Of a DNA stretch of 64,000 bases, positions 1-11,519 are shown in pieces. The notes under the pieces were generated by a model that worked only from the letters and a program-made list of their open reading frames with translations, had not been told where the DNA came from and ran no database searches. This stretch comes from Escherichia phage chee24: the sequence record NC_047885.1. The stretch is one strand, 5' to 3'. Position numbers and translations under genes: made by a program. Each line of letters starts with the position of its first letter. Position 1 is the stretch's first letter.

Positions 1-16
1 ATTTCAACTTTAATTA

Positions 17-751
17 TTACGCAACTTTTAATTTCTCAATATATTGTTGCGGGCTGCAACTATATTCTGCGCGTTCTTCTTCGGTCATACCTTCCCAACA
101 TAATTGCAGGCGGTCGGCTAGGAACTGATAATCATTATCATCCTCAAGAGATTCATCAATAAAGGTTTCACCTATCAATGTCACGCCGATTGATAGAATA
201 TCGTTAACGGCTTGTGCGTCCAGCGTTTTAAATCCGTATGACGCTGCCGCTGATAGCACGCCTTTATGATCATCAATCATTGTAAAATCAGCGTTCGGAT
301 ATAATTGTTTGAATAGCCCAAAATAGTAACTTTTATAAACTGCGTCTTTGCTGTGGTATATCTCGCTAACTTTATCAGCCTCAAAATATTTGTGTAGTGT
401 ATCGCGGGAAAATACACGGATATTACTATCACCACGACCGCGCAAGCCTTGTTTGCGCAAATAATAATAGTCCGACTTGCTCATCAGTCGAGCGGTGCAA
501 ATAATGTTTAATGTATTTGCGTCATTCATGCACTGGCGCATATATGTAACAAGGGGCAATAAAGTATCTTGCATTATTAAATCATGTTTGCAGGCTTCAT
601 TTTTATACTTATTTAAATCTAAATTGCCCTCGCTATCAAAGCAAGGCGCTACACGATGGAAAGAATTAATGATAGTGCCGTCCAGATCCCAAATCATGAC
701 GCGGGAAATATGCGGGAAATTACGGGTAATATTCATTTTAACTTGATTCAT
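17..751 (-). CDS. dmp: 5'-deoxyribonucleotidase (Dmp-like HAD-family phosphatase)
   Basis: 244 aa ORF; N-terminal HAD motif IWDLDGTI; first gene of a T5-type pre-early block; RBS-like GGAGAA upstream. Confidence 0.7.
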   Translation of the reverse strand: MNQVKMNITRNFPHISRVMIWDLDGTIINSFHRVAPCFDSEGNLDLNKYKNEACKHDLIMQDTLLPLVTYMRQCMNDANTLNIICTARLMSKSDYYYLRKQGLRGRGDSNIRVFSRDTLHKYFEADKVSEIYHSKDAVYKSYYFGLFKQLYPNADFTMIDDHKGVLSAAASYGFKTLDAQAVNDILSIGVTLIGETFIDESLEDDNDYQFLADRLQLCWEGMTEEERAEYSCSPQQYIEKLKVA

Positions 752-831
752 TTTGTTACGTTCTCCATTAAAGGGATTAGATTAATTCAGCATTACCCGC
801 TATTTATAAGCGGGTAATAATAAATTAACTA

Positions 832-1224
832 TTAAAGACCATACGCCAACGCATCAGCAATAAAACTAATATCTTCACCAGATACACCGGAACGAATCCC
901 CGCACAAGTATATACCTTTGCGCTGGTCAATTGATCATCGAGGCAAGCGGGGCAAGGTGCGACTACTGCGAAAGCTAAACCAGATTTTACCGCGTCAATA
1001 ATGATGGTTTCTTGTTTCACCGTATCAACATAAACGCCTGCGGCCTTAATGTAACTACTTGCGCGGCCTTGCGTATAGGCAAAGGTAGTAACCTGCAAAG
1101 CGTCATTGAAATCTAATAGGTCATCAATAACGTGCCCCGCCTCGACGTGGTAACGTTCGCCATTAGAATAAACCAGAACAATTGAGGATTGAGCGCGATC
1201 GAATGGAATATTTTGCTTTTTCAT
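832..1224 (-). CDS. hypothetical protein (130 aa; HxE and PCxxC motifs)
   Basis: ORF co-directional with pre-early block; HVEAGH and PCPAC motifs, spacing atypical for a deaminase. Confidence 0.5.
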   Translation of the reverse strand: MKKQNIPFDRAQSSIVLVYSNGERYHVEAGHVIDDLLDFNDALQVTTFAYTQGRASSYIKAAGVYVDTVKQETIIIDAVKSGLAFAVVAPCPACLDDQLTSAKVYTCAGIRSGVSGEDISFIADALAYGL

Positions 1225-1262
1225 ATTTATAAAACTCCAATTAGTTTAATAAGGGGTTTAAT

Positions 1263-1553
1263 TTACTTGATAATAATTTGCATTTGATACGGCGTTAATT
1301 CACCGTTTACGGGTAAATTATTATCGCTTAGCCACTCATAAAAAGCACCATCATCATCAAAAGGGACAATATCGTTATCACGGGAATCGACGGAAATAAT
1401 ACCATCCGTATTAGTTTTGGCGGCTAGGATAGGCCCGAAGCTGTAAACTTTATCAGATTCCATTTCATCCGGTGAAATGAATACTTTTTCGTCCAATGTT
1501 TTGGGTAATGTAACTTTCATTTTTTGACTCCTATAATAGCGGCTATATTTCAA
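1263..1553 (-). CDS. hypothetical protein (96 aa)
   Basis: ORF in pre-early block, tight spacing with neighbours. Confidence 0.45.
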   Translation of the reverse strand: MKYSRYYRSQKMKVTLPKTLDEKVFISPDEMESDKVYSFGPILAAKTNTDGIISVDSRDNDIVPFDDDGAFYEWLSDNNLPVNGELTPYQMQIIIK

Positions 1554-1573
1554 GCCGCTAGGGTATTAATTAT

Positions 1574-3238
1574 TTACGCGAAAAATTTACCGTTTTTAAA
1601 GTCGATCAAAGTGCGCTGACCGTTTGCATAGGTAATAACATGCGTTTGCGTCCAGCTTGACGCGCCAACGTTGTAACCCATGTCCAGACTACCAGACACG
1701 CCAGCGGTGTATACGCCGCCGTAAATGCTGGCGGTATGAGTGTGCCCCGTGTTTAATTTGCCCAATTTCTTAAACTGTTTCGGATTGCCACGGCTCCCGT
1801 TTATGCCATTGTGACCGTGTACGCCGCATTCAATACCTGCAATCTTGAAAGATTGATCAGTGGTCAGAAAAATGGCGTTAAATTCACAACCTGCAACCTT
1901 GCGCAGCGCATAATCTAGCACGTTGAAAGTATCGTCATGATCACCGATTGCCGCGTAAATTGCAGCATTTAGGCGGTGATATAGTTCCGCGTTTGCTGGA
2001 TCGTCTTTAATGTTAGCATTACGATCATCTAACCAGCGGGATAGCGCCAGATCATGATTAGACTCAACAATGATTGTTTGCGAAAAATCGCGCTCCATTG
2101 ACTCCAGCACGCGACCGGTATCGATAAGATCATCCAGAACTTTATCACGTCCGGCGGCATACTGTTTTGCTAGGAATACACCCGAAGCGCGGTTGTGATG
2201 GTTGCGTGATGTAAAGTCGTGAACGTCATGGATAAACTGATATTTTGGTTTAAGAATATCAAGCAAGCTATTTTCGCCAGCCCATGACGCAACGGCGCAA
2301 GCGTCATCCAATTTTTCGGCGTGTACGTCGCCATATTGTAAACCTAAAACGTGCCCCGTTGTTTCATAACATCCGGCGGGAGTGGCGCAAACATTCAGAT
2401 CATAAAACACCCCGCTTTCGTCCATTGTTTCAAGCTGGCGCACAAAAAACTCACCGTCTTCGTCGAACTCAACAATCAGCGCCCCGAAATTATGCAGTGC
2501 TTCCGCTTTCTGTCCTGCTTTCTGCTGAATGTAGTTTTTAAGCGTTGCCGTTCCGGTTGAATACATACGGCGCACAATTTCACCTTTTAAAGCTGGAACG
2601 CTTTCGGCGGTAATTTTTGCCGCTCCAATTGCCAGACCTTCGATATTTAAAGCCGTTGCAGTTTCTGCAAATCCAGAAAGCGGATAATCTGCGGTTGGCA
2701 AAACATTAATTTCAGCCATGAAAGCAAAGCGGCGGTTATTTAAAAACACGTTTTTGCTGCAAATATATTTATCGAACGCGGAATCATATTTGATTCCGTC
2801 GGCGCCCTCGCCATTTTGAAAACCGTTTTTATTATAAATATACTTGCTAACTAGCAAATCAGCACCAATAAATTGGGCGTATTGTTCAAGCGAGGCTAAA
2901 AAGTTTTTATGAGGGAACGTATTATTCTGAATCGATGTAATAATAAAGCGTTTACCCTGCTTTACTTCCCATTGTTCAACCGTGCTAGAAACAATCCCCG
3001 CCGCTTCTGGGCGCTCATCGTTTTTAATGGCTTTTGCTACTTTCGCCGCTTTCGGTTTCGCTGGTTTATTTGCTTCCAGCCAATCGCAAATTGCGGTGGA
3101 GTGTTTTGTTGTATCATAAACCGCTTTAGAAATATCGTCGCACACTTCCAGCTTAGTAGCGCGCAGGCGTTTACCGTAGAAATTGAAATCAGCGGCCATT
3201 TTCAGGATAACGGTTTGTTTTTCTGCGGAAATAACCAT
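1574..3238 (-). CDS. A1: A1-like pre-early protein with calcineurin-like metallophosphoesterase domain
   Basis: 554 aa; phosphoesterase motifs GDVHAE and GHTHT; size and position match T5 A1. Confidence 0.75.
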   Translation of the reverse strand: MVISAEKQTVILKMAADFNFYGKRLRATKLEVCDDISKAVYDTTKHSTAICDWLEANKPAKPKAAKVAKAIKNDERPEAAGIVSSTVEQWEVKQGKRFIITSIQNNTFPHKNFLASLEQYAQFIGADLLVSKYIYNKNGFQNGEGADGIKYDSAFDKYICSKNVFLNNRRFAFMAEINVLPTADYPLSGFAETATALNIEGLAIGAAKITAESVPALKGEIVRRMYSTGTATLKNYIQQKAGQKAEALHNFGALIVEFDEDGEFFVRQLETMDESGVFYDLNVCATPAGCYETTGHVLGLQYGDVHAEKLDDACAVASWAGENSLLDILKPKYQFIHDVHDFTSRNHHNRASGVFLAKQYAAGRDKVLDDLIDTGRVLESMERDFSQTIIVESNHDLALSRWLDDRNANIKDDPANAELYHRLNAAIYAAIGDHDDTFNVLDYALRKVAGCEFNAIFLTTDQSFKIAGIECGVHGHNGINGSRGNPKQFKKLGKLNTGHTHTASIYGGVYTAGVSGSLDMGYNVGASSWTQTHVITYANGQRTLIDFKNGKFFA

Positions 3239-3336
3239 AATAATAAAACTCCATTAAAGGGATTAAAAAACGTTTGTTATTGGCAAATATTGCCAAATAT
3301 AACGCCGCTCATTTACAGCGTTATAATTTGCAACAT

Positions 3337-3582
3337 TTAACTAATTGGCACTAGGCTAGAACTAACACCACAAACAACGGCAGCAATAAAACAAAGTAAG
3401 CCCAAACGCTTTGCTAATTTAGATTTACGTTTAAAATAATACGAATCTAAATCATTTTGAAAATAAGCGAACAATAGGGAGGCCGCTACAATAAATAAGC
3501 CTAAAATTAGCGATTCAGTGGGAAAGAAAACCATTTTAATAACTCCAGTCAAAGGGAAATTATAGTGGGGAATATTCCCCAC
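3337..3582 (-). CDS. small hydrophobic membrane protein (81 aa)
   Basis: ORF with two hydrophobic segments; in pre-early operon. Confidence 0.45.
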   Translation of the reverse strand: MGNIPHYNFPLTGVIKMVFFPTESLILGLFIVAASLLFAYFQNDLDSYYFKRKSKLAKRLGLLCFIAAVVCGVSSSLVPIS

Positions 3583-3591
3583 TAATTAAAT

Positions 3592-3999
3592 TTATTCGCC
3601 TGCGGCTTGTTTTACTTCATCGGCAACGCCTAACAGTTGCGCCACGGCGTCCAGCGTTTCTAATTTTGCGCTTTCCAGCGATGCCAGATCGTCGGCGTCT
3701 TTGATAATGCCGGAATCAATAGCATGTTTAGCGATAACGCGCACATAGTGAGCCTTACGAATTGAACTGCCGCCGCCAACTTTGCGCGGCTTATCGCTTT
3801 TCTGGTACGCTTTTGCGCTGGTCAATTTTGAGCGAACAGACACGGGAGAAGCCGCACCAACTGTTTTTGCGATCTCTTTCAGGCCGTCGCTGTTGGCGAA
3901 CTCCAAGCCGTTTTCATTGATCAACTGTTGATACATGGTAACAGCCTGCTGGGTGTTTTCTTCATTCCAAGAGAATTTTGCGGTTTTAGCGTTAGTCAT
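3592..3999 (-). CDS. A2: A2-like pre-early protein (135 aa)
   Basis: 135 aa ORF immediately downstream of A1 on same strand; size and position match T5 A2; no catalytic motif seen. Confidence 0.55.
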   Translation of the reverse strand: MTNAKTAKFSWNEENTQQAVTMYQQLINENGLEFANSDGLKEIAKTVGAASPVSVRSKLTSAKAYQKSDKPRKVGGGSSIRKAHYVRVIAKHAIDSGIIKDADDLASLESAKLETLDAVAQLLGVADEVKQAAGE

Positions 4000-4097
4000 G
4001 ATTATAACTCCTATTGATTTAATTTAAGGGATAAGATTAACATAATGTTAATCGTTATATACCCCGAACTACTGGGGTATATAAAGTTAACACTAAA

Positions 4098-4349
4098 TTA
4101 TAAAACAGCTTCCCATTTTTCGTTGCGCTGGGCAACCTTTACAACGTCGCCGGATTTAACCCGAACGCTATAAATAGTTTTCCCGTTGTTACTCCGTTCC
4201 GTTTCAGCGTATACCGCATCAATTACATCAAACGGCATAAGCGCCGCGCCTTTAATGCGTTCGGCCTTTCCGGTTAATTCGTCCGTTTTAGTAACGAAAG
4301 GAATAAAAACGGATTGACCAATTTTTGGCGCATTAGTAACGTTTTTCAT
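4098..4349 (-). CDS. hypothetical protein (83 aa)
   Basis: ORF in pre-early block. Confidence 0.45.
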   Translation of the reverse strand: MKNVTNAPKIGQSVFIPFVTKTDELTGKAERIKGAALMPFDVIDAVYAETERSNNGKTIYSVRVKSGDVVKVAQRNEKWEAVL

Positions 4350-4577
4350 GGTATAAACTCCAGTTTATTCAGTGGATTGTTCCGCATTACCTGCTAGAAA
4401 GTAGCAGGTAATAAGCAACAATCCGCTCGCCATTATAATCAATTTAAAGAACTCCACTCAGGCCGCTATATCCCAGTTAGGGGGCGGGACACATTATGGT
4501 AAGTGCCGACCGTCAAATTTTATCAAGTTATCGCTCTCATCGAACTGGGTACATCTTAAAGCCTATCGGCTAGGGTG

Positions 4578-4781
4578 TCAAACAGTTTTTTGCAGTTTTT
4601 TATGATTTTCTTTCAGGTCAATCATAATATTGCGCCAGATCATTTCCAAACCTTGCTGGCGGCCTTTCTTGTACTGCATGAATCTGAATTTTACGGATTG
4701 TTGAGCTATTGTCAACAGCTTTCTAGTATTGCCATCCAATTTTTTGGCGGGTTTACCAGTGATTAATAAAGTTTGTTTCAT
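4578..4781 (-). CDS. hypothetical basic protein (67 aa)
   Basis: ORF with GGAGGG RBS; start ATG overlaps stop of upstream small ORF (ATGA). Confidence 0.45.
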   Translation of the reverse strand: MKQTLLITGKPAKKLDGNTRKLLTIAQQSVKFRFMQYKKGRQQGLEMIWRNIMIDLKENHKKLQKTV

Positions 4782-4936
4782 TCCACGCCCTCCAGTGCAT
4801 ACAGACCTTTACCATCATTACAGAATACAACCGCTTCTGAATGGTTGGCGTGATATTCGTTTGCCGCTTTTACCCATTGCTCGATCTTTTCGATCGTGTC
4901 ATGGGTTGCTGGATGATCGTTATATATTGTTTGCAT
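4778..4936 (-). CDS. hypothetical small protein (52 aa)
   Basis: Hand-translated ORF (below track cutoff) with AAGGAA RBS; translationally coupled to 4578-4781. Confidence 0.35.
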   Translation of the reverse strand: MQTIYNDHPATHDTIEKIEQWVKAANEYHANHSEAVVFCNDGKGLYALEGVE

Positions 4937-5372
4937 ATCTGCGATTCCTTATAATGAATAAGTTTACCGCCGATAGACTTTAAGATATACCCAATTTTTA
5001 AAGAGCGCGGCGGTAAACTTCCCGCCGTGTAGTTCGTCATTGCCGCCCTACGTGATAAATAATAGGGTATTCCCGAAAATGGCGCAACCTTATTTTTGTA
5101 AAGAAACGTAAAGAAAGCAACACGTTCGGCGCTCACCTAAGTTTAAAGGAAACGGGCGCGCGAATACCATAAAACCAAGCAGATAGGCAAGTAATTTTTT
5201 CATTTATATTTGCCTTGCCCTACTTGACAAAATCTAAAAAGCTCGTGGTAGCGATAAACGGCTTATCCCCTTATGATGGGATGGCTAAAAACTTCATCGC
5301 GTTCTAGGACGTTTTAGGCGCATTCTAGCCTTGTTGATAACTTATCCCCAAAAGCAAAAATGAAATTTTCCT

Positions 5373-5410
5373 AGTTATCCACTTGACTTTTATTTTCCAG
5401 TGGATAACTA
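5373..5410. repeat. inverted repeat containing two facing DnaA-box-like sequences
   Basis: AGTTATCCAC ... GTGGATAACT, perfect 10-bp arms. Confidence 0.6.
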
Positions 5411-5720
5411 CTTATTTTATAAAATTAATTAATTGACTTTTATTTGTTAGTGTGTATCGGAAAGATAGCAGACTAATAATTGTTAGGATTATAATCATGC
5501 TGGTGGATTGTAACAGCCTGAACTATTAGCAGACTATTAATCTCGGAAAATCTCATTAGCCAACTAACTATTTCATATTATATAATATACATATAAATTA
5601 ATGAGAAATAATAATTATAAGAAATCGTAACCGATAGAAATAATAACTACAAAAATAATCACCGTTATAATAATAACGATAAGAAACTATCGGCCTAAGT
5701 GAGAACCACTATCATTTAAG

Positions 5721-5813
5721 TTATTCACAAAGTTATCCACAGCACAAAATGATTTGACACGATAGGCGGCGATATAAGGACTTATCCACAGACTTATCCA
5801 CATGTTATCCTAC
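5721..5813. promoter_or_regulatory. cluster of five DnaA-box-like 9-mers
   Basis: TTATTCACA, TTATCCACA (x3), TTATCCTAC within about 90 bp. Confidence 0.6.
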
Positions 5814-5828
5814 TGTATATTTATACAG
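5813..5828. repeat. 16-bp perfect palindrome CTGTATATTTATACAG (copy 1)
   Basis: Exact palindrome adjacent to DnaA-box cluster; identical copy at 9368-9383. Confidence 0.7.
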
Positions 5829-6094
5829 GGTAAAAAGGTAGTGTTAACAACTGCAATCAATTTTAAGCGGCCTAAAACGCTTTCTAACGAGCAAAACGCT
5901 ATAGGGTAATATTAAAGTAAAGCCTCAACGCGTCGCCCTGGTGACTTCGCCGTGTTTTGCTCTTTACTATACCGCTGCGCGTTTAACATAAAAATAAGCG
6001 TTAGGCAAGGAAAATAAAAAGGTAAAATAATATTTGCCCCTAGAAAGAAAATACCTTTATCATTCACTCACCGATTAACGAGGGAGGCCAACAA

Positions 6095-7087
6095 ATGCGG
6101 CTATATAAACCAGATAACGCAACCGTCTTAAAAGGTGCGTTGCGTAACCTGCTGGATGGTAGCAGAACAACCAGCATTAAACATTTTGTTTTCAATATTG
6201 AAACACTTCATCGTAATTTTCTTGATGATTACGATGCTTATAATATGAATAGTTTTCTACCGTTATATAATCAAGGGGCAACGCTTGTTTTATATAATCA
6301 GGAATCTCACTTGCTTACTAGTCGAGGGCCAGATACTGATTTTATTATAGTGAAAGGCAGTACAGTAAAAGCCTATGATGCGGGGGCGGGCTTAGAAGTT
6401 TTCACGATAGAAAATTATGAGCCTTATGATAAGGATCTTTATGACGTAGAAAATTTTCTCGATTCATTTTGGCGTTATTTATCAATTGGGTGGAATCGAT
6501 CAGATTATCACGGGTATCGTTTTGCGGCTATAATGGCTTTTGATGATAACGGTAATTTTTTGCTACCGTCGGAATTATACCCGTATGTATATAATGATTT
6601 AATAGAGGAGGCTGGTTTTACTTTCTGGAAAGATGAAGATCAGCCTATTGACAACACGGAAAAACATGCTGTAAATTCTAACACTCAAAGCGTTAACACT
6701 CAAATTACTGAAAACAAAGGAAAAAATACCATGACCAAGATCGCTAATATCGTTGCCGCCAATAAGTCTGCTGTTGTAAATGCTGCAAAACTGGAAGCGG
6801 GTAAAATTGCATTAACTCAAATCACGAAAGTAGCGGCTAAAAAAGCGCCGTTTATGATTAAAGGTTATATTGATACGCCGATTGGTCGGGTAGTTATTGC
6901 CAACCTGCTGAGCGTAGCGGTTGACCAGTACGCCCCAGCTAACCAGAAAGCGAAAGCGGTAGCAGGTGCAGCTATGGAAGCGGCTATGTTAGAAATGGTG
7001 CAAAGTTTTAACATCGCTGAAATGATCGATGAAATGGTGAAAGGTATTGATATTTCTACTTTTACCACTAGCACCGAAAGCGAGTAA
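6095..7087 (+). CDS. hypothetical protein (330 aa, Ala/Lys-rich C-terminal region)
   Basis: ORF with GAGGGAGG RBS; first gene of rightward cassette bounded by inverted DnaA-box/palindrome repeats. Confidence 0.6.
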   Translation: MRLYKPDNATVLKGALRNLLDGSRTTSIKHFVFNIETLHRNFLDDYDAYNMNSFLPLYNQGATLVLYNQESHLLTSRGPDTDFIIVKGSTVKAYDAGAGLEVFTIENYEPYDKDLYDVENFLDSFWRYLSIGWNRSDYHGYRFAAIMAFDDNGNFLLPSELYPYVYNDLIEEAGFTFWKDEDQPIDNTEKHAVNSNTQSVNTQITENKGKNTMTKIANIVAANKSAVVNAAKLEAGKIALTQITKVAAKKAPFMIKGYIDTPIGRVVIANLLSVAVDQYAPANQKAKAVAGAAMEAAMLEMVQSFNIAEMIDEMVKGIDISTFTTSTESE

Positions 7088-7151
7088 TAATATTAAGCGG
7101 GGATTGTTACCCCGCTTTACTATTCCCTTGTTAATTAATAGGAGGCTAATT

Positions 7152-7646
7152 ATGCCAGAAGAAAAATATGGCTTCTCACTGGGAGAAGTGAGTACGGCTA
7201 AACATGATATGATTGTTTTAGTCGATTGCCATACCGGTTATTGCGGGGAAGGGAATACTGAGGAATATTTTGTTCCTGCTGGTACGGATCTCGACGCTTT
7301 CGCCCATGAAATGGCTGTTGATAATGCTTCTCGTTTTGGTAGCGATGGTTACGAAGACGAAGAAACGGGCGATTGGTATGAGAATGATAATGTATATGCA
7401 AGCCTTTATCATTATCAATTAAGTAAATCCGGCACATATGTAAACGGCGGTGATCCTATTAATTCCGTCATGAAATTAATTATTAAATATGGCGGCGTCG
7501 AGATAGTCGATAACAAAGCGGTAATATATGCAAACCGATTAAAACAGCTTGTTTATATCCCTGATAGTACCCGATGGGAGGAATATGCTGTTTTGCATGA
7601 TGAATTAAAACGATGTTTCAATATTGAAACCTTACAAGTAGTTTAA
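7152..7646 (+). CDS. hypothetical protein (164 aa)
   Basis: In-frame ATG with GGAGG RBS inside track ORF 7047-7646; followed by hairpin plus T-run terminator. Confidence 0.6.
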   Translation: MPEEKYGFSLGEVSTAKHDMIVLVDCHTGYCGEGNTEEYFVPAGTDLDAFAHEMAVDNASRFGSDGYEDEETGDWYENDNVYASLYHYQLSKSGTYVNGGDPINSVMKLIIKYGGVEIVDNKAVIYANRLKQLVYIPDSTRWEEYAVLHDELKRCFNIETLQVV

Positions 7647-7661
7647 TGTAAAGTTTTGTAA

Positions 7662-7690
7662 AGGCCGCCTCTTATGGTGGCCTTTTTTGT
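7662..7690 (+). terminator. rho-independent terminator
   Basis: Hairpin AGGCCGCC..GGTGGCCT followed by TTTTTT. Confidence 0.65.
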
Positions 7691-7754
7691 TATAATGCCT
7701 TTACACCGTTTAAGGACGGTTGAAAATTTTCCCAAAAAATTTTGGAGGCTTATA

Positions 7755-7985
7755 ATGGTTGCTTATTCTTCTTCTGACGCTCTTTTCACTGGAAAAGGCT
7801 GGGTATCAAATCGCTGGATCATTCAAGAAATGGTGCAAGAATATGGCATTGCTAAAACTTACACTACCATTCAGGCGCTTTATGATAATGATCAAATTGA
7901 TCAGCAAACGGCGGGCTTTTTGCTGGATACCCTAAAAGCGGAACACTGCACCAAAAAACAAGCTGCAAAAATTGTTTTAATGTAA
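7755..7985 (+). CDS. hypothetical protein (76 aa)
   Basis: In-frame ATG with GGAGG RBS inside track ORF 7674-7985. Confidence 0.5.
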   Translation: MVAYSSSDALFTGKGWVSNRWIIQEMVQEYGIAKTYTTIQALYDNDQIDQQTAGFLLDTLKAEHCTKKQAAKIVLM

Positions 7986-8181
7986 TTAATAAAGGGGGAT
8001 ACTATATCCCCCACTAACTAGAGAGAATAAAAATGGTTATTTTTCGAGCTATTCTAGCAGGTATCTTGGGCGCTATTTTATCACTTTTTGCAATAGCTTT
8101 CGGCGTTCACGCGGTTATTATTGGCGCGGGGATTGCCGTTTTTTCTTATCTGCTGGGCTGCATGAATAAAGGAGAATAAAA

Positions 8182-8394
8182 ATGATCCGCAACGTTTCCC
8201 TTGCCCGCTCCAAAGGCTTTAAGCTGGTGGACGTTAACACGTTTGAGCGGGAGGATTGTAAAATCGAATATGTAGCACGCAACAAAAATGCCTTTCGTGT
8301 TACAGAAAAGAAATTTGACAAGCGCGGCAACGTGATCGCTGAAACGGTTAAACACTTTGCCACCTTTTACGCTGCGTTTCGTGGGGTGTTATAA
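8182..8394 (+). CDS. hypothetical protein (70 aa)
   Basis: ORF with AAGGAG RBS. Confidence 0.5.
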   Translation: MIRNVSLARSKGFKLVDVNTFEREDCKIEYVARNKNAFRVTEKKFDKRGNVIAETVKHFATFYAAFRGVL

Positions 8395-8395
8395 A

Positions 8396-8740
8396 ATGGT
8401 TATTTATGAGGGCAATCGTTTTGTTGCTAATTGCCGTCCGGCATTACTAGCAAACTATTTAAATCAGGTTTCACCTGAATATAAAGGCGTCATTAATATT
8501 TACGAGGGTAAGGCGCACTATAAAATTAATGCGGTCGTTGCCCGTGAATTAGCATTTCAATTTTTGACCTTTGCATCTTGTGACGTTCAGGTTATGGGTG
8601 AAGCATTAATTGCAGAAAATGAAGATGATTTTATTAATATTTTCCGCAAGATATGCACCGAGCGCCTGATCATGAAAGGCGCATATATTCAATCCACTGC
8701 GGATAGCATTGAAACAGCGTTTCGAAAGGTGGCGCAATGA
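8396..8740 (+). CDS. hypothetical protein (114 aa)
   Basis: In-frame ATG overlapping upstream stop (coupled); inside track ORF 8357-8740. Confidence 0.5.
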   Translation: MVIYEGNRFVANCRPALLANYLNQVSPEYKGVINIYEGKAHYKINAVVARELAFQFLTFASCDVQVMGEALIAENEDDFINIFRKICTERLIMKGAYIQSTADSIETAFRKVAQ

Positions 8741-8913
8741 AAAAGTTTTTAATAGCTGGTATGTTTCCTTTGTTGCCTTATGTAATTTGCTGGGCTTTAT
8801 ACGCTCATGGTGCTAGTGTTCCCGGTGTGGCCTCGTTTGGTGTATCGGCTGGTTTTCTAACCGGACTATTGGCAAGCGTATATCTGCGCAAATAATTAAT
8901 AACGGGAGTTATT

Positions 8914-9108
8914 ATGAGCAATAAAATTGTTGTAACCAAAATCAGTACAATGGTTGACGTTTTTTATGTGCCCGATACGCCGGAAAACCGGCAAGCGGTC
9001 GAGCGTGGCGAGTATGATAAAGTGATTTATGATCACGATGGTTACTATCAACATTTGGTGGATTCCTACGGGGAGGGGGAAAAAATCACGCATCGACTAC
9101 CAGACTAG
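8914..9108 (+). CDS. hypothetical protein (64 aa)
   Basis: ORF with GGGAG RBS; last gene of rightward cassette. Confidence 0.45.
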   Translation: MSNKIVVTKISTMVDVFYVPDTPENRQAVERGEYDKVIYDHDGYYQHLVDSYGEGEKITHRLPD

Positions 9109-9367
9109 TAATCACGGGGGCGCAACTACCAGGGAGTGCCCCCAATTCTCAAATGAGAATGATTCTCATTTGACCGCGCCCGCGATGGTTAGCCTGCTAA
9201 TGATTAGGGTGTTACGTGTCGCCTTGTGTGATCGTTAGCAGGCTAACTAATTTTTAAGCCTCCTCCAATTTTGCCCTTGTTTTAGTATCCCCATCAAAAT
9301 TAAACGCGTTAGAATGCGATTCAGGACGTTTTAGGCCTATATTAGAATTATTCACTACATAGGAGTA

Positions 9368-9383
9368 CTGTATATTTATACAG
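9368..9383. repeat. 16-bp perfect palindrome CTGTATATTTATACAG (copy 2)
   Basis: Identical to 5813-5828; followed by reverse-orientation DnaA boxes. Confidence 0.7.
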
Positions 9384-9405
9384 TAGAATAACCTGGGGAT
9401 AAGTC

Positions 9406-9475
9406 TGTGGATAACGCCTCAAAATGGCTAGGATTCTGTCAAGTCAAATCGTGCTGTTGATAAGTCTGTGGATAA
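9406..9475. promoter_or_regulatory. two DnaA-box-like sequences in reverse orientation (TGTGGATAA)
   Basis: Each within the motif GATAAGTCTGTGGATAAC, mirroring 5781-5803. Confidence 0.6.
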
Positions 9476-9500
9476 CTTAAATAACAGTGTTTCTCACTTC

Positions 9501-9680
9501 CATTTTTAAATGCGAATCATTATCATTTGCATTTCACTGTCTAACTGATAATCATTTCACTTTTTAAATGAGAATCATTTCACTTTTTGAATAGTTCTCA
9601 TTCCGCTTTTTAAATGAGAATAATTATCATTCGCATTTCACTTTTTAAATGAGATTGATTCTCATTATCATTCGCATTTA
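9501..9680. repeat. AT-rich repeat array (five copies of CACTTTTTAAATGAGAAT-like unit with palindromic AATGAGAATCATT cores)
   Basis: Visible repeated units at roughly 20-40 bp intervals. Confidence 0.6.
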
Positions 9681-9709
9681 GGCGAGCAGGGCAATTGCCC
9701 TGCGCTTTT

Positions 9710-9932
9710 GTGCAAATCCGACATTGCTCCACGGGTGTTACGTGCGGGCGTGTATGTGCGAATCCGACAATTTTTGGTAGTGTGCGAATCCGACCCGAAA
9801 AATTTTTATAGTGTGCAAATCCGACAATGAATTTTCCCAAAAACTCCAGCAATCTCGAACTGCGTTCGAATCCTGTGGAATTAGCTAGAATATGTGCAAA
9901 TCCGACATGTGTTGAGATGTGCGAATCCGACA
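9710..9932. repeat. iteron array: six direct copies of GTGC(A/G)AATCCGAC(A/C)
   Basis: Copies at 9710, 9756, 9782, 9813, 9894, 9919; irregular spacing. Confidence 0.75.
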
Positions 9933-10261
9933 AGATTTTTGTGACTTCGATTGGAGGGTGTGTGATTGTATGGGTTTGAGGAGAAGGTGAGAGAGCGAGA
10001 GAAATTTTGGTACTAGAAGGGTGTGGGCGCAGGATTGGTGCGGAGCACCTGATTTGCGGGGATTTTGGGGAAGATGTAAGATAATTTGGGAAGATTTGAG
10101 ATAGGTGCAGAAAAAGTGAAATTTTATTAGCAAAATGGGGCAAAATAGCTTGACAAGTGAAAATTCCTGTGGCTCTAAAAACTCAGGCAATCATGGGCCT
10201 TCGGCCCGAAATAATGCTGCTATTTTCAGGGGAGTAAAAGTTCCTAAAAACTTAGGCGTTT

Positions 10262-10310
10262 GTGCAAATCCGACCATAAATTTCTAGAAATGCAGTGTGC
10301 AAATCCGACA
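10262..10310. repeat. two further copies of the GTGCAAATCCGAC iteron
   Basis: Copies at 10262 and 10297, each followed by a TTCTAGAAA or TTCTGGAAA palindrome-like motif. Confidence 0.7.
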
Positions 10311-10339
10311 GTAATTTCTGGAAATGTGTTTTCAAAAAA

Positions 10340-10440
10340 TGTCTTCTAGAAATAACCGCCCTCCCTATAACCGCCCTGTATTAACCGCCTAGTATATGTT
10401 CCTAGAAACTTAGGAGAACCGCCCACTAGAAGTGTGATAT
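10340..10440. repeat. AACCGCC short direct repeats (four copies) interleaved with TTCTAGAA-type palindromes
   Basis: ATAACCGCC, ATAACCGCC, TTAACCGCC, GAACCGCC seen within 100 bp. Confidence 0.55.
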
Positions 10441-10787
10441 TTCGTGAGAACTCTGGAGTTTCTAGGAAAGTGTTATGCCATCCTAGCAGATGAGCGACAA
10501 CAGGTGTATCATCTTGAATGTAAATTATGTGGACAAAAGTTTTACCTTTTATTTAAATAAAAGATCCCCCAATCTCGTAAGTCTGCTGCTCTAGGCGTTC
10601 AAGATCTGTATGCTAATCCCGTGAAAACTGCTGCAGAATACATCCTAACGCCAGGGGCGCTGGTGTACTCTTCGAGTTGGGATAGCAATAATCTTGTTGC
10701 CTAGAGCTAAAAACAGAAGTTGTTTTTAATCTATGAGATTATTATAACATGTGCCTTAATGAGTTGTCAAGAAGATTTTGTTAACGT

Positions 10788-11519
10788 TTATTCCTTCCGC
10801 TTGTATTTGAGAACGATACCCTTCGAGACCATGAAGAGGAAAGTTGCAAGATAGGAATGTGGGGATTTTAGCGCATCATAATCTACAGTTCCGAAAGAAC
10901 CTTCGCCAAATACCTCAGAGTTCTCAAATGTAGGAAGTAAACGTGCCAATCCTACAGCTCCTATAATCTTAAAGAATTGATCCCAGTCATTTAACATTGC
11001 TTTATGTGCAGACTGTAAGATTAATGGCATCTCTAGGTTCTTTTCGAGACATAGATGAACCTGCGCAATCGTAGAAGCAATCCCTAGCAACACTTCATCT
11101 TTTGTATAAGGGAATCCAGTATCTTTTCTTTGGAGTCTAGGAAGATGATCATATTCACAACGTTTAGGTGGGATGAACTTTTCCTCGGGATATAATTCTA
11201 ATGCAACTCTAACGTTTCCTTCTTTAAATACTGGAAGTTCCTGATCTGCAAAGACATGATATGAATCTGCCTTGAACCCTACAATCTTATCACCAACAGA
11301 ATTGATGATCTTTCTCATTGCAATATAAGAAGGGGATAGAGTTACGAATTTTTCTTCTTTATTATATTTAACAATTCCAGCTTCTGTATAAGCTGCGGGA
11401 TGAAACTCAGAACAGAATGCTACTGCATGAGCTTCATCAGGAGTTAGTTCAGAAACACATTTGCCGTCAGCATTCTTAGCCAGCTTAATAATAGTCTTTA
11501 AATTCTCACTAATACTCAT
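10788..11519 (-). CDS. hypothetical early protein (243 aa)
   Basis: ORF; first in a run of tightly packed leftward ORFs. Confidence 0.6.
   Translation of the reverse strand: MSISENLKTIIKLAKNADGKCVSELTPDEAHAVAFCSEFHPAAYTEAGIVKYNKEEKFVTLSPSYIAMRKIINSVGDKIVGFKADSYHVFADQELPVFKEGNVRVALELYPEEKFIPPKRCEYDHLPRLQRKDTGFPYTKDEVLLGIASTIAQVHLCLEKNLEMPLILQSAHKAMLNDWDQFFKIIGAVGLARLLPTFENSEVFGEGSFGTVDYDALKSPHSYLATFLFMVSKGIVLKYKRKE

What the first reader, a model, noticed from the sequence alone, without database searches (positions are those of the whole stretch)
10195..10700. Second repeat family (AACCGCC and TTCTAGAA motifs) plus GC tetraloop hairpin
Four AACCGCC direct repeats are interleaved with TTCTAGAA-like palindromes, next to a GGGCC-TTCG-GGCCC hairpin at 10195-10208. 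Multiple independent repeat families stacked in 1 kb suggest a multifunctional cis element (packaging, replication or transfer pause). Track ORFs here (9610-10190) are probably not coding.
Basis: seen in the sequence. Interest (0 to 1): 0.45.

Follow-up and report, generated by a model that had tools for sequence, protein, structure and literature searches.

The report
Repeat cluster beside T5 terminal-repeat end
The repeats and the hairpin are real and conserved, and they form the non-coding DNA just outside the point where T5-like phages cut the right end of their 10-kb terminal repeat; this is a known but functionally unexplained region, and it most likely helps to form or handle the genome end.

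Summary
The window is the left 64 kb of a T5-like phage, 100% identical to pork27, pork29 and saus47N.

**Observation.** It largely holds.
- AACCGCC occurs four times in 70 nt.
- TTCTAGAA-type palindromes cluster here.
- The hairpin is GGGCC-TTC-GGCCC (13 nt, 10195-10207), not a TTCG tetraloop.

**Position.** By homology to six phages with annotated ends, the right end of the terminal repeat maps to 10175|10176. That is 19 nt left of the hairpin, and the pork27 record under-calls it. The finding is therefore the unique-side flank of the repeat boundary. It is the outer part of Davison's "Repeat Region 3", whose DRD copies 7-9 are annotated in T5; AACCGCC, the palindromes and the hairpin are not.

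**Evidence.**
- The block 10140-10234 is nearly invariant in 32 relatives.
- The motif arrays are conserved and occur at no other locus in the roughly 110-kb non-redundant genome (one repeat copy plus the unique region).
- A Klebsiella Sugarlandvirus keeps the architecture but has a different hairpin at the same offset.
- The local ORFs are not coding.

**Best reading (about 0.4).** This is a genome-end or concatemer-junction processing site: repeated protein-binding motifs flank the cut, and a leftward terminator abuts it.

**Rivals.** Control of the injection stop and second-step transfer, a transcription insulator, or a replication origin.

**Seen in passing.** A conserved consensus promoter (10741-10770, minus strand) drives a hypervariable but always strongly folded RNA of about 170 nt.

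The parts
9709..9932 (+). Six DRD copies (TGTGCRAATCCGAC) inside the terminal repeat. They form the left-hand array flanking the end cut and are given here as context.
   Evidence: Annotated as direct repeat D copies 1-6 in T5 AY587007.
10140..10175 (+). Last 36 bp of the terminal repeat, AGCTTGACAAGTGAAAATTCCTGTGGCTC, nearly invariant.
   Evidence: Conservation profile of 32 sequences and alignment of 12 phages.
10175..10176 (.). Right end of the long direct terminal repeat, which is the position of the mature right genome end: ...CCTGTGGCTC | TAAAAACTCAGG...
   Evidence: Assigned by homology. The ends of T5 (10219 and 10139 in its two records), BF23 (PhageTerm), phiR2-01 (read coverage), Sw2 and Sepoy (PhageTerm) and EscoHU1 all map to this same nucleotide. 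The pork27 record places the end 208 nt further left.
10175..10187 (+). CTARAAACTYAGG motif, copy 1. It starts at the last base of the repeat. Its A-run is the U-tract of the leftward terminator-like element.
   Evidence: There are only three exact matches in the roughly 110-kb non-redundant genome, all in this locus.
10184..10219 (.). Two-tier stem-loop: an outer stem CAG-CA/TG-CTG and an inner stem GGGCC-TTC-GGCCC (10195-10207). On the minus strand it is followed by AGUUUUUA.
   Evidence: Folds. The inner hairpin is invariant in 32 sequences. Sugarlandvirus AmPh_EK80 has CAAGC/GCTTG plus CACGGTG-ACA-CACCGTG at the same offset, followed by U7. The Sw2 record annotates a terminator on the minus strand here.
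10208..10234 (+). Nearly invariant tail GAAATAATGCTGCTATTTTCAG.
10244..10256 (+). CTARAAACTYAGG motif, copy 2 (palindromic CCTAA...TTAGG).
   Evidence: (repeat family D11).
10261..10310 (+). Two composite units of about 35 bp: DRD copy 7 (10261-10275) with palindrome ATTTCTAGAAAT (10280-10291), and DRD copy 8 (10296-10310).
   Evidence: DRD copies 7 and 8 are annotated in T5 and are nearly invariant.
10314..10353 (.). Palindromes ATTTCTGGAAAT (10314-10325) and TCTTCTAGAAAT (10342-10353), separated by TGTGTTTTCAAAAAATG.
   Evidence: At least 90% conserved.
10354..10423 (+). Four AACCGCC repeats at 10354, 10369, 10383 and 10417, spaced 15, 14 and 34 nt. The first two are AACCGCCCT.
   Evidence: Three to five copies are kept in all 28 distinct relatives. 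Two AACCGCCCT copies are kept in Sugarlandvirus. Copies 3 and 4 lie in a less conserved stretch with indels.
10402..10414 (+). CTARAAACTYAGG motif, copy 3. A degenerate inverted copy lies at 10453-10465.
10468..10518 (.). Conserved unique block AAGTGTTATGCCATCCTAGCAGATGAGCGACAACAGGTGTATCATCTTGAA, function unknown.
   Evidence: GTATCATCTTG is 100% conserved. I did not find it on reading the AmPh_EK80 sequence.
10519..10571 (.). AT-rich stretch ending in the conserved GATCCCCCA (C5 at 10566-10570). On the minus strand this reads GGGGGAUCUUUUAUUU, terminator-like.
10572..10735 (-). Hypervariable but strongly structured transcript region: a small hairpin (10707-10729) and a long hairpin (10591-10704).
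   Evidence: Minimum free energy -54.7 against -29.0 +/- 3.8 kcal/mol for shuffles, z = -6.8. Other sequence types give z = -3.0 to -6.5. The minus strand is the more stable one in 25 of 25 sequences. Compensatory changes are present. There is no Rfam match.
10741..10770 (-). Consensus sigma-70 promoter: TTGACA, 18 nt, TATAAT, with an upstream TG, firing leftward.
   Evidence: 12 of 12 matches. Both hexamers are conserved in all 12 aligned phages and in Sugarlandvirus, although the flanks have diverged.

Best explanation
The interval is non-coding, cis-acting DNA. It forms the unique-sequence flank of the right boundary of the T5-type 10-kb terminal repeat and is the outer part of the conserved 'Repeat Region 3' of T5-like phages. 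Shown here: the mature right genome end maps to 10175|10176, inside a block of about 95 bp that is nearly invariant. To the right lie arrays of short motifs found at no other locus in the genome: DRD, ATTTCYRGAAAT palindromes, CTARAAACTYAGG and AACCGCCCT. Six further DRD copies lie to the left of the cut. Inferred: these arrays are binding sites for one or more sequence-specific proteins. In the replicative concatemer these proteins would build a complex around the cut site, so that terminase makes the right-end cut at one defined nucleotide. Because T5 injects its left end first, the right end is probably packaged first, so this cut would start packaging. The stem-loop with its A/T tract reads on the minus strand as an intrinsic terminator. 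It would stop or pause leftward transcription from the early genes and from the conserved promoter at 10770 exactly at the repeat boundary. In this it resembles phage T7, where RNA polymerase pausing at the concatemer junction is coupled to end processing.
For: (1) Six annotated terminal-repeat ends fall on the same homologous nucleotide, 19 nt left of the hairpin. PhageTerm or read coverage is documented for four of them. (2) The strongest conservation in the whole non-coding region, 10140-10234, is centred on that nucleotide. (3) The three exact CTARAAACTYAGG sites of the genome all lie in this locus, and one starts at the cut. The perfect or one-mismatch ATTTCYRGAAAT palindromes occur only here. 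DRD has 8 copies here and 1 elsewhere. AACCGCC has 4 of its 11 copies here. (4) DRD arrays lie on both sides of the cut, both here (6 copies and 2) and in Sugarlandvirus AmPh_EK80 (5 and 6). (5) AmPh_EK80 keeps CCTGTGGCTC|CAAAAA and, at the same offset, a hairpin of different sequence with an outer and an inner stem. On the minus strand U7 follows it directly, which argues for a structure rather than a sequence requirement. (6) The distance from the first DRD to the cut is 592 +/- 1 bp in nearly all relatives, which suggests a spatial constraint. (7) The ORFs are not coding. (8) A consensus promoter aimed at the boundary is conserved.
Against: No protein binding, cleavage or packaging was tested. 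The end position in this phage rests on homology, and its own database record puts the end at 9967. The direction of T5 packaging is inferred from the 'last in, first out' rule and was not taken from a paper. The left-end junction shares none of these motifs, so a single recognition code for both cuts is not evident. The AACCGCC array lies 180-250 nt from the cut here but about 510-540 nt from it in AmPh_EK80, so its link to the cut is loose. The stem-loop is not more stable than shuffled sequence (z = -0.7), and the terminator scan did not call it. Most transcripts from the 10770 promoter probably end earlier, near 10560. The literature attributes the whole repeat region to the injection stop signal, also without experiment.
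Confidence: 0.4

Rival explanations
1. It is part of the control of T5's two-step DNA transfer. The arrays right of the repeat end would belong to the injection stop signal or to the restart of second-step transfer. For example, they could be bound by A2/A1 or a host protein as the first second-step DNA enters. Alternatively, they could act as a brake at the virion neck during the pause.
For: DRD copies 7-9 belong to the same family as DRD 1-6, which lie in the region annotated as the injection stop signal. Davison defines Repeat Region 3 as overrunning the repeat by 270 bp and stresses that it is conserved. Geometry also fits. The shear point at about 7.9% plus a tail of 175-250 nm (515-735 bp; tail lengths) puts the segment from the repeat end to AACCGCC at the portal or upper tail during the pause (my calculation).
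Against: The most conserved block is centred on the repeat end, which transfer control does not predict. DNA right of the stop point is outside the cytoplasm during the pause, so cytoplasmic proteins cannot reach it then. The 7.9% figure is too imprecise (several hundred bp) to place the neck. No experiment assigns the stop signal to any particular motif.
Confidence: 0.25
2. It is purely transcriptional. A leftward terminator or insulator would protect the terminal repeat from early-gene transcription, and the motifs would be operator sites for a regulator of the neighbouring promoter and small RNA.
For: On the minus strand the stem-loop is followed by a U-tract, and the arrangement is canonical in AmPh_EK80. 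The Sw2 record annotates a terminator there. Left of the boundary, the minus-strand RNA would be C-rich and G-poor for about 250 nt, like a Rho loading site: the + strand GC skew is +0.57 to +0.72. A palindrome that covaries between phage types overlaps the promoter's start site.
Against: A terminator needs about 40 nt, not 400 nt of conserved multi-family repeats. The arrays lie 270-560 nt from the promoter, which is far for operators. This reading does not explain why DRD copies flank the cut or why the cut sits inside the motif.
Confidence: 0.15
3. It is a replication origin, either iteron-type or R-loop-type. A strong promoter would transcribe through a structured RNA, a G5 run and an AT-rich stretch into arrays of direct repeats, as in ColE1, T7 or T4 origins. 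The repeats would bind an initiator such as the UL9-like helicase D2.
For: The anatomy fits: promoter, GGGGG followed by a stretch of about 35% GC, direct repeats, and DnaA boxes about 800 bp to the left. T5 D2 resembles origin-binding helicases.
Against: Electron microscopy placed T5 origins near the centre of the genome, as cited by Davison. The AACCGCC spacing of 15, 14 and 34 nt is not in phase with the DNA helix. No initiator gene is adjacent; the neighbouring gene is a PHROG family of unknown function. Several sequence types have a canonical terminator before the repeats.
Confidence: 0.1
4. The region encodes small proteins, namely the ORFs annotated in some database records.
For: Some records annotate genes here: P27_0015 in pork27, g010.3 in phiR2-01, and gp017 in Sw2.
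Against: No PHROG family matches. The frames are interrupted in T5, BF23, K15 and K16. The start codon is missing in T5. One ORF crosses the repeat end, so the right-hand copy would truncate it. The DNA is invariant at all three codon positions.
Confidence: 0.02

Closest known systems
Repeat Region 3 / injection stop signal region of phage T5 (Heusterspreute 1987; Wang 2005; Davison 2015 and bioRxiv 10.1101/866236)
   Same: It is the same locus by direct homology. The window aligns base for base with T5 9300-10660. The DnaA-box pairs, the DRC/DRE repeats and the DRD repeats are all present. T5 annotates DRD copies 7-9 beyond the repeat end. Davison notes a 270-bp overrun into unique DNA.
   Different: The T5 records and the Davison preprint do not name the AACCGCC repeats, the ATTTCYRGAAAT palindromes, the CTARAAACTYAGG motif or the stem-loop (one search found no occurrence). 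They do not relate the region to the cut that forms the genome end. They do not cover the promoter or the structured RNA further right.
Phage P1 pac site and SPP1 pacL-pacC-pacR (recalled from memory, not tested here)
   Same: Arrays of short repeated motifs lie on both sides of a defined terminase cut and serve as protein-binding sites that position the cut.
   Different: P1 and SPP1 package by the headful mechanism from one pac cut. T5-like phages have exact ends with a 10-kb direct repeat. The motifs are unrelated in sequence. No binding data exist for T5.
Phage T7/T3 concatemer junction (recalled from memory)
   Same: These are exact-ended genomes with a direct terminal repeat. Short repeat arrays lie near the ends. 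A promoter reads towards the junction, and polymerase pausing or termination at the junction is coupled to end processing.
   Different: The T7 repeat is 160 bp and depends on T7 RNA polymerase. Here the repeat is about 10 kb, the promoter is of the host sigma-70 type, and any coupling is only inferred from position.
Lambda cos (cosQ-cosN-cosB)
   Same: It is a single-locus cis site in which a cut site is flanked by repeated terminase-binding elements and a host-factor site.
   Different: Lambda makes staggered nicks that give cohesive ends and has no terminal repeat. There is no sequence similarity.
Rho-independent terminator
   Same: A G/C-rich stem-loop is followed by a U-tract on the minus strand. 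The arrangement is canonical in the Sugarlandvirus relative.
   Different: In the window the U-tract starts 2 nt after a bulged outer stem. The simple scan did not call it, and the fold is not better than shuffled sequence.

Membership tests
T5 Repeat Region 3 / injection-stop-signal region | A large non-coding region at the right end of the left terminal repeat, lying between the rightward pre-early ORFs and the first leftward early gene. | tested here: met
   No credible gene lies between about 9110 and 10787. The region is collinear with T5 9140-10935.
T5 Repeat Region 3 / injection-stop-signal region | Paired DnaA boxes (IRD'/IRC') and DRC/DRE repeats to the left. | tested here: met
   GGGGATAAGTCTGTGGATAAC and TTGATAAGTCTGTGGATAAC lie at 9396-9476, and there are six 23/35-nt repeats at 9495-9660.
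T5 Repeat Region 3 / injection-stop-signal region | About nine DRD repeats (TGTGCAAATCCGAC), the last two or three lying beyond the repeat end. | tested here: met
   There are eight copies, six inside the repeat and two outside at 10261 and 10296.
T5 Repeat Region 3 / injection-stop-signal region | It halts DNA transfer after about 8% of the genome. | not testable with these tools
   This needs blender or ejection experiments.
Terminase recognition/cleavage site (pac/cos type) | It contains the nucleotide at which mature genome ends are made. | tested here: met
   By homology, six annotated ends map to 10175|10176. This was not measured for this phage.
Terminase recognition/cleavage site (pac/cos type) | Sequence conservation is focused on the cut. 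| tested here: met
   10140-10234 is 90-100% conserved in 32 sequences and is the most conserved stretch.
Terminase recognition/cleavage site (pac/cos type) | It is a single-locus element with repeated motifs flanking the cut. | tested here: met
   The Sugarlandvirus relative has the same layout.
Terminase recognition/cleavage site (pac/cos type) | It is bound by small terminase and is needed for cutting or packaging. | not testable with these tools
   No binding or genetic data were found in the searched literature.
Rho-independent terminator (minus strand) | A stable G/C-rich stem-loop is followed directly by a U-tract. | tested here: inconclusive
   The scan did not call it. The extended stem followed by AGUUUUUA is present, with z = -0.7. 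The form in AmPh_EK80 is canonical.
C(UUCG)G tetraloop hairpin | A UUCG loop closed by a C-G pair. | tested here: not met
   The sequence GGGCCTTCGGCCC gives a 3-nt loop UUC on a 5-bp stem.
Iteron-type or R-loop replication origin | Regularly phased iterons lie next to an AT-rich unwinding element and an initiator gene. | tested here: not met
   The spacing is 15, 14 and 34 nt. An AT-rich stretch is present. No initiator gene is adjacent. The literature places the origins near the genome centre.
Any Rfam RNA family | A covariance-model match. | tested here: not met
   There was no relevant match in the window at 8800-11000 or in six relatives.

The most novel reading that the evidence does not exclude
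The locus is a transcription-coupled module for handling the genome end, and it is the first piece of second-step DNA to enter the cell. A conserved consensus promoter (10770) makes a hypervariable long-hairpin RNA, which may be an arms-race decoy that protects the incoming DNA. Polymerase, or the motif-bound proteins, stop at a terminator placed exactly at the repeat boundary and so define where terminase cuts. A related possibility is that the AACCGCC and palindrome array sits at the portal during the first-step pause and acts as the physical brake of two-step injection.
Probability: 0.12. Interest if true: 0.75.

Novelty: new member of a known kind. Interest (0 to 1): 0.4.

Why it matters
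Two questions about T5 have been open for more than 50 years: how it stops and restarts DNA injection, and how it makes exact ends with a 10-kb repeat. Both are attributed to this untranslated region without any functional dissection. This analysis puts the end cut at one nucleotide inside a defined conserved block. It also separates the flank into four short motif families, a stem-loop, a promoter and a structured RNA. That gives a small set of targets for mutagenesis and binding assays. It also shows that several database records, including the one identical to this window, mis-place the repeat ends.

Tried and rejected
- **Rfam:** searches of the window region and of six relatives gave nothing relevant.
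- **PHROG:** scans of the three local ORFs gave nothing, so the coding reading was rejected.
- **Promoter and terminator scan:** it found no + strand promoter in the conserved block and did not call the hairpin a terminator. TTGACA at 10150 has no acceptable -10 hexamer when read by eye.
- **IMG/VR scan for paired AACCGCCCT:** it returned mostly unrelated contigs and added little.
- **IMG/VR scan with a degenerate pattern for the repeat end:** it returned only close relatives.
- **Papers not held in the library:** Bourguignon 1976 on T5 origins and Davison 2015.
- **Literature searches:** no T5 transcript map or T5 packaging site turned up.
- **Resemblance of the DRD core GTGCGAA to the herpes UL9 box:** this was recalled from memory and not pursued, because T5 D2 shares only the helicase part of UL9.
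- **Nick site:** the T5 major nick maps to about 9704, outside the interval.
Full report
**Identity and position**

The 1.7 kb around the finding is 100% identical to five T5-like phages from food: pork27, pork29, saus47N, saus111K and poul124 (species Tequintavirus chee24). It matches more than 440 other T5-like records. The window is the left 64 kb of the genome.

In pork27 the left terminal repeat is annotated as 1-9967, which would put the finding about 230 nt outside it. A base-for-base alignment with T5 corrects this. The T5 repeat end (10219 in AY543070 and 10139 in AY587007) corresponds to window 10175|10176, in the sequence ...CCTGTGGCTC|TAAAAACTCAGGCAATCATGGGCCTTCGGCCC.

Five further records place the end at the same homologous nucleotide:
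- phiR2-01, determined from read coverage
- BF23, determined with PhageTerm
- Sw2 and Sepoy, determined with PhageTerm, and EscoHU1

Kenya-K15 places the end 18 nt further left. The pork27 and chee158 records under-call the repeat by about 208-229 nt on the right. On the left, pork27 under-calls it by about 95 nt.

The whole finding is the unique-sequence flank of that boundary.

**Check of the observation**

- **AACCGCC.** It occurs at 10354, 10369, 10383 and 10417. These are 4 of only 9 matches on both strands of the window and 4 of 11 in the roughly 110-kb non-redundant genome.
- **TTCTAGAA.** With at most one mismatch it occurs five times between 10282 and 10467.
- **Two sub-families.** These sites split into the 12-bp palindromes ATTTCYRGAAAT (10280, 10314 and a degenerate copy at 10342) and the motif CTARAAACTYAGG. 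The three exact copies of CTARAAACTYAGG in the genome are at 10175, 10244 and 10402, and the first starts at the last base of the repeat.
- **DRD.** Two copies of T5's DRD repeat (TGTGCAAATCCGAC) lie at 10261 and 10296, each followed by a palindrome. Together they form two composite units of about 35 bp.
- **Hairpin.** It is GGGCC-TTC-GGCCC, 13 nt, at 10195-10207, so it is not a UUCG tetraloop.

**Not coding**

- The ORFs 9610-10143(-), 9885-10190(-) and 10135-10287(+) match no PHROG family. The neighbouring gene 10788-11519(-) matches one at 1.7e-113.
- The longest open frame across the region falls from 190 codons here to 92-125 in T5, BF23, K15 and K16.
- T5 lacks the ATG of the + strand ORF.
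- The two T5 reference records annotate no gene here.
- The 10135-10287 ORF would also be cut by the repeat end.

**Conservation**

In an alignment of 12 phages and a profile of 32 distinct sequences, four stretches stand out.
- 10140-10234 is the most conserved. It runs from TTGACA through the cut and the hairpin to GAAATAATGCTGCTATTTTCAG and is 90-100% conserved.
- DRD copies 7 and 8 are nearly invariant.
- 10314-10381 holds two palindromes and two AACCGCCCT copies.
- 10468-10518 is a conserved block of unknown function.

The stretch with AACCGCC copies 3 and 4 (10382-10467) is looser and has indels; T5 carries an extra DRD there. Even so, three to five AACYGSC copies persist in all 28 distinct relatives. 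The distance from the first DRD to the cut is 592 +/- 1 bp in almost all phages.

A member of another genus, Klebsiella Sugarlandvirus AmPh_EK80, keeps the whole plan:
- DnaA-box pairs, DRC-type repeats and five DRD copies
- TTGACA...CCTGTGGCTC|CAAAAAAAC
- a hairpin of different sequence at the same offset: outer stem CAAGC/GCTTG and inner stem CACGGTG-ACA-CACCGTG
- six more DRD copies and two AACCGCCCT copies
- ATCCCCC, a structured stretch and the promoter

This replacement of the hairpin is the best evidence that a structure, not a sequence, is required there. On the minus strand the AmPh_EK80 hairpin is followed directly by U7, a canonical intrinsic terminator. In the window the corresponding two-tier stem (10184-10219) is followed by AGUUUUUA, which is the complement of the A-run at the cut. 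The Sw2 authors annotated a minus-strand terminator at this spot. By energy alone the window's stem-loop is unremarkable (z = -0.7).

**What is already known**

T5's AY587007 record annotates palindromes C-J, repeats A-D and IRC'/IRD' in this region, including DRD copies 7-9 beyond the repeat end. Between DRD 9 and ORF018 it annotates nothing.

[quoted passage not shown] It stresses conservation in 25 phages and states that the function of the repeats cannot be guessed. A text search of that paper finds neither AACCGCC nor TCTAGA.

So the locus is known, and its function is attributed to the injection stop signal without experiment. The sub-motifs in this finding are not named there.

**Best explanation**

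The cut that makes the right genome end falls on one nucleotide in six phages, so a specific signal must direct it. The only nearly invariant block is centred on that nucleotide. Motif arrays found at no other locus flank it on both sides, with DRD both left and right.

This anatomy matches terminase sites in which repeated protein-binding elements position a cut, such as P1 pac, SPP1 pacL/pacR and lambda cosB; these comparisons are from memory. T5 injects its left end first, so by the usual "last in, first out" rule the right end would be packaged first. That makes this cut the likely start of packaging, which is an inference.

A consensus promoter aimed at the boundary, and a terminator-like stem-loop whose U-tract ends at the cut, recall the T7 concatemer junction (again from memory). 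I therefore read the finding as the outer half of a genome-end or concatemer-junction processing site. My confidence in that function is about 0.4. My confidence that it is a conserved non-coding cis element at the repeat boundary is about 0.9.

**Rivals**

1. **Transfer control.** The DRD family continues from the region called the injection stop signal. My arithmetic also puts this segment at the portal or upper tail during the first-step pause: the shear point at about 7.9% plus 515-735 bp of DNA inside a 175-250 nm tail (tail lengths). The 7.9% figure is too coarse to be decisive, and this reading does not explain conservation centred on the cut.
2. **Pure terminator or insulator plus operators.** Supported by the stem-loop and by an extreme G-rich (+) tract at 9900-10150 (GC skew up to +0.72). 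That tract would give a C-rich, Rho-loading type of RNA to leftward transcripts. However, 400 nt of multi-family repeats is more than a terminator needs.
3. **Replication origin.** The promoter, G5 run, AT-rich stretch and direct repeats fit an R-loop or iteron origin, and T5 D2 resembles origin-binding helicases. Against this, the repeat spacing (15, 14, 34 nt) is unphased, no initiator gene is adjacent, and published electron microscopy puts the origins near the genome centre.
4. **Coding.** Rejected, as set out above.

**Beyond the finding: a promoter and a structured RNA**

Directly after the stop codon of the gene 10788-11519 lies a perfect sigma-70 promoter on the minus strand: TTGACA, 18 nt, TATAAT, with an upstream TG (10770-10741). 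Both hexamers are conserved in every relative although the flanks diverge.

Downstream of it (leftward), 10572-10735 is hypervariable in sequence, with at least seven unrelated types. Despite that, it always folds into a small hairpin plus a long hairpin of about 110 nt.
- The window folds at -54.7 against -29.0 +/- 3.8 kcal/mol for shuffles, z = -6.8.
- Five other types give z = -3.0 to -6.5.
- The minus-strand fold is more stable than the plus-strand fold in 25 of 25 sequences from 7 types.
- Within types, changes are compensatory: 3 pairs in the T5 type and 16 in the KPP2018 type.
- Several types end in a canonical terminator that uses the conserved GGGGG.
- In AmPh_EK80 the upstream gene appears, on my reading of its sequence, to have its own terminator before the promoter. 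If so, this is an independent unit.
- No Rfam family matches.

This looks like an unannotated gene for a small structured RNA. It would be among the first second-step DNA to enter the cell. Its function is unknown.

**Verdict**

The finding is real, conserved and non-coding. It lies in a locus already described in T5 but never functionally dissected. The new content is the exact relation to the genome end, the motif families, the structural conservation of the stem-loop, and the neighbouring promoter and RNA. Interest is moderate.

Noticed in passing
window 10572-10770 (minus strand): A perfect sigma-70 promoter (10770-10741) is conserved in all relatives, including another genus. It drives a region of about 170 nt that is hypervariable in sequence, with at least 7 types. 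The region always folds into a small hairpin plus a long hairpin (10591-10704; z down to -6.8). The minus strand is always the more stable one, compensatory changes are present, and there is no Rfam match. It is a candidate unannotated structured RNA gene.
   Followed up: partly
window 10727-10741: The 15-bp palindrome TAATCTCATAGATTA overlaps the predicted transcription start of that promoter. It covaries between phage types (T5 has TAACTCTATGAGTTA), as an operator or a 5' hairpin would.
   Followed up: no
window 9900-10150: The last 250 bp or so of the terminal repeat are extremely G-rich on the + strand, with GC skew +0.57 to +0.72 and runs such as GGGGATTTTGGGG. The Sugarlandvirus relative has, at the same place, a run of G-tracts that by eye fits a canonical G-quadruplex motif (L021 1540-1610).
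   Followed up: partly
window 1 and 9968-10175; L003 2558-2652: The database records identical to this window appear to under-call the terminal repeat. By homology to T5 and BF23 the true left end lies about 95 nt upstream of window position 1 (GGTG|TGTCCAGTGG). The true right end is at 10175, not about 9968.
   Followed up: yes
window 10167-10175; genome left ends in L018, L019 and L153: Both genome ends carry CCA(C/G)(A/T)G starting 3 nt inside the terminus. The left ends read TGTCCACTG (T5), TGCTCACTG (BF23) and GCCCAGAGG (Sw2). The complement of the right end reads GAGCCACAG. This is a short imperfect inverted terminal repeat and may reflect what terminase recognises when it cuts.
   Followed up: partly
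window 9150-9250 and L003 2565-2650: A palindrome ATGAGAATGAnTCTCAT followed by TTAGCAGGCTAA occurs left of the DnaA boxes. It occurs again just inside the true left end of the repeat. An 8-bp inverted repeat AGTCACGG...CCGTGACT ends at the record's annotated repeat start.
   Followed up: no
window 121-145 and 9651-9669 (also 9495-9680): There are sequences resembling the Fur box: 3 matches with at most 3 mismatches to GATAATGATWATCATTATC, against 0.05 expected. They include the DRC/DRE repeats of the injection-stop region. This is notable because T5's receptor FhuA is iron-regulated.
   Followed up: partly
L050, L055, L060, L068, L076 (IMG/VR contigs unrelated to T5): Several unrelated viral contigs carry many copies of AACCGCCCT-N13-AACCGCCCT at a fixed span of 31 nt. 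These are presumably a dispersed regulatory repeat of another phage group.
   Followed up: no
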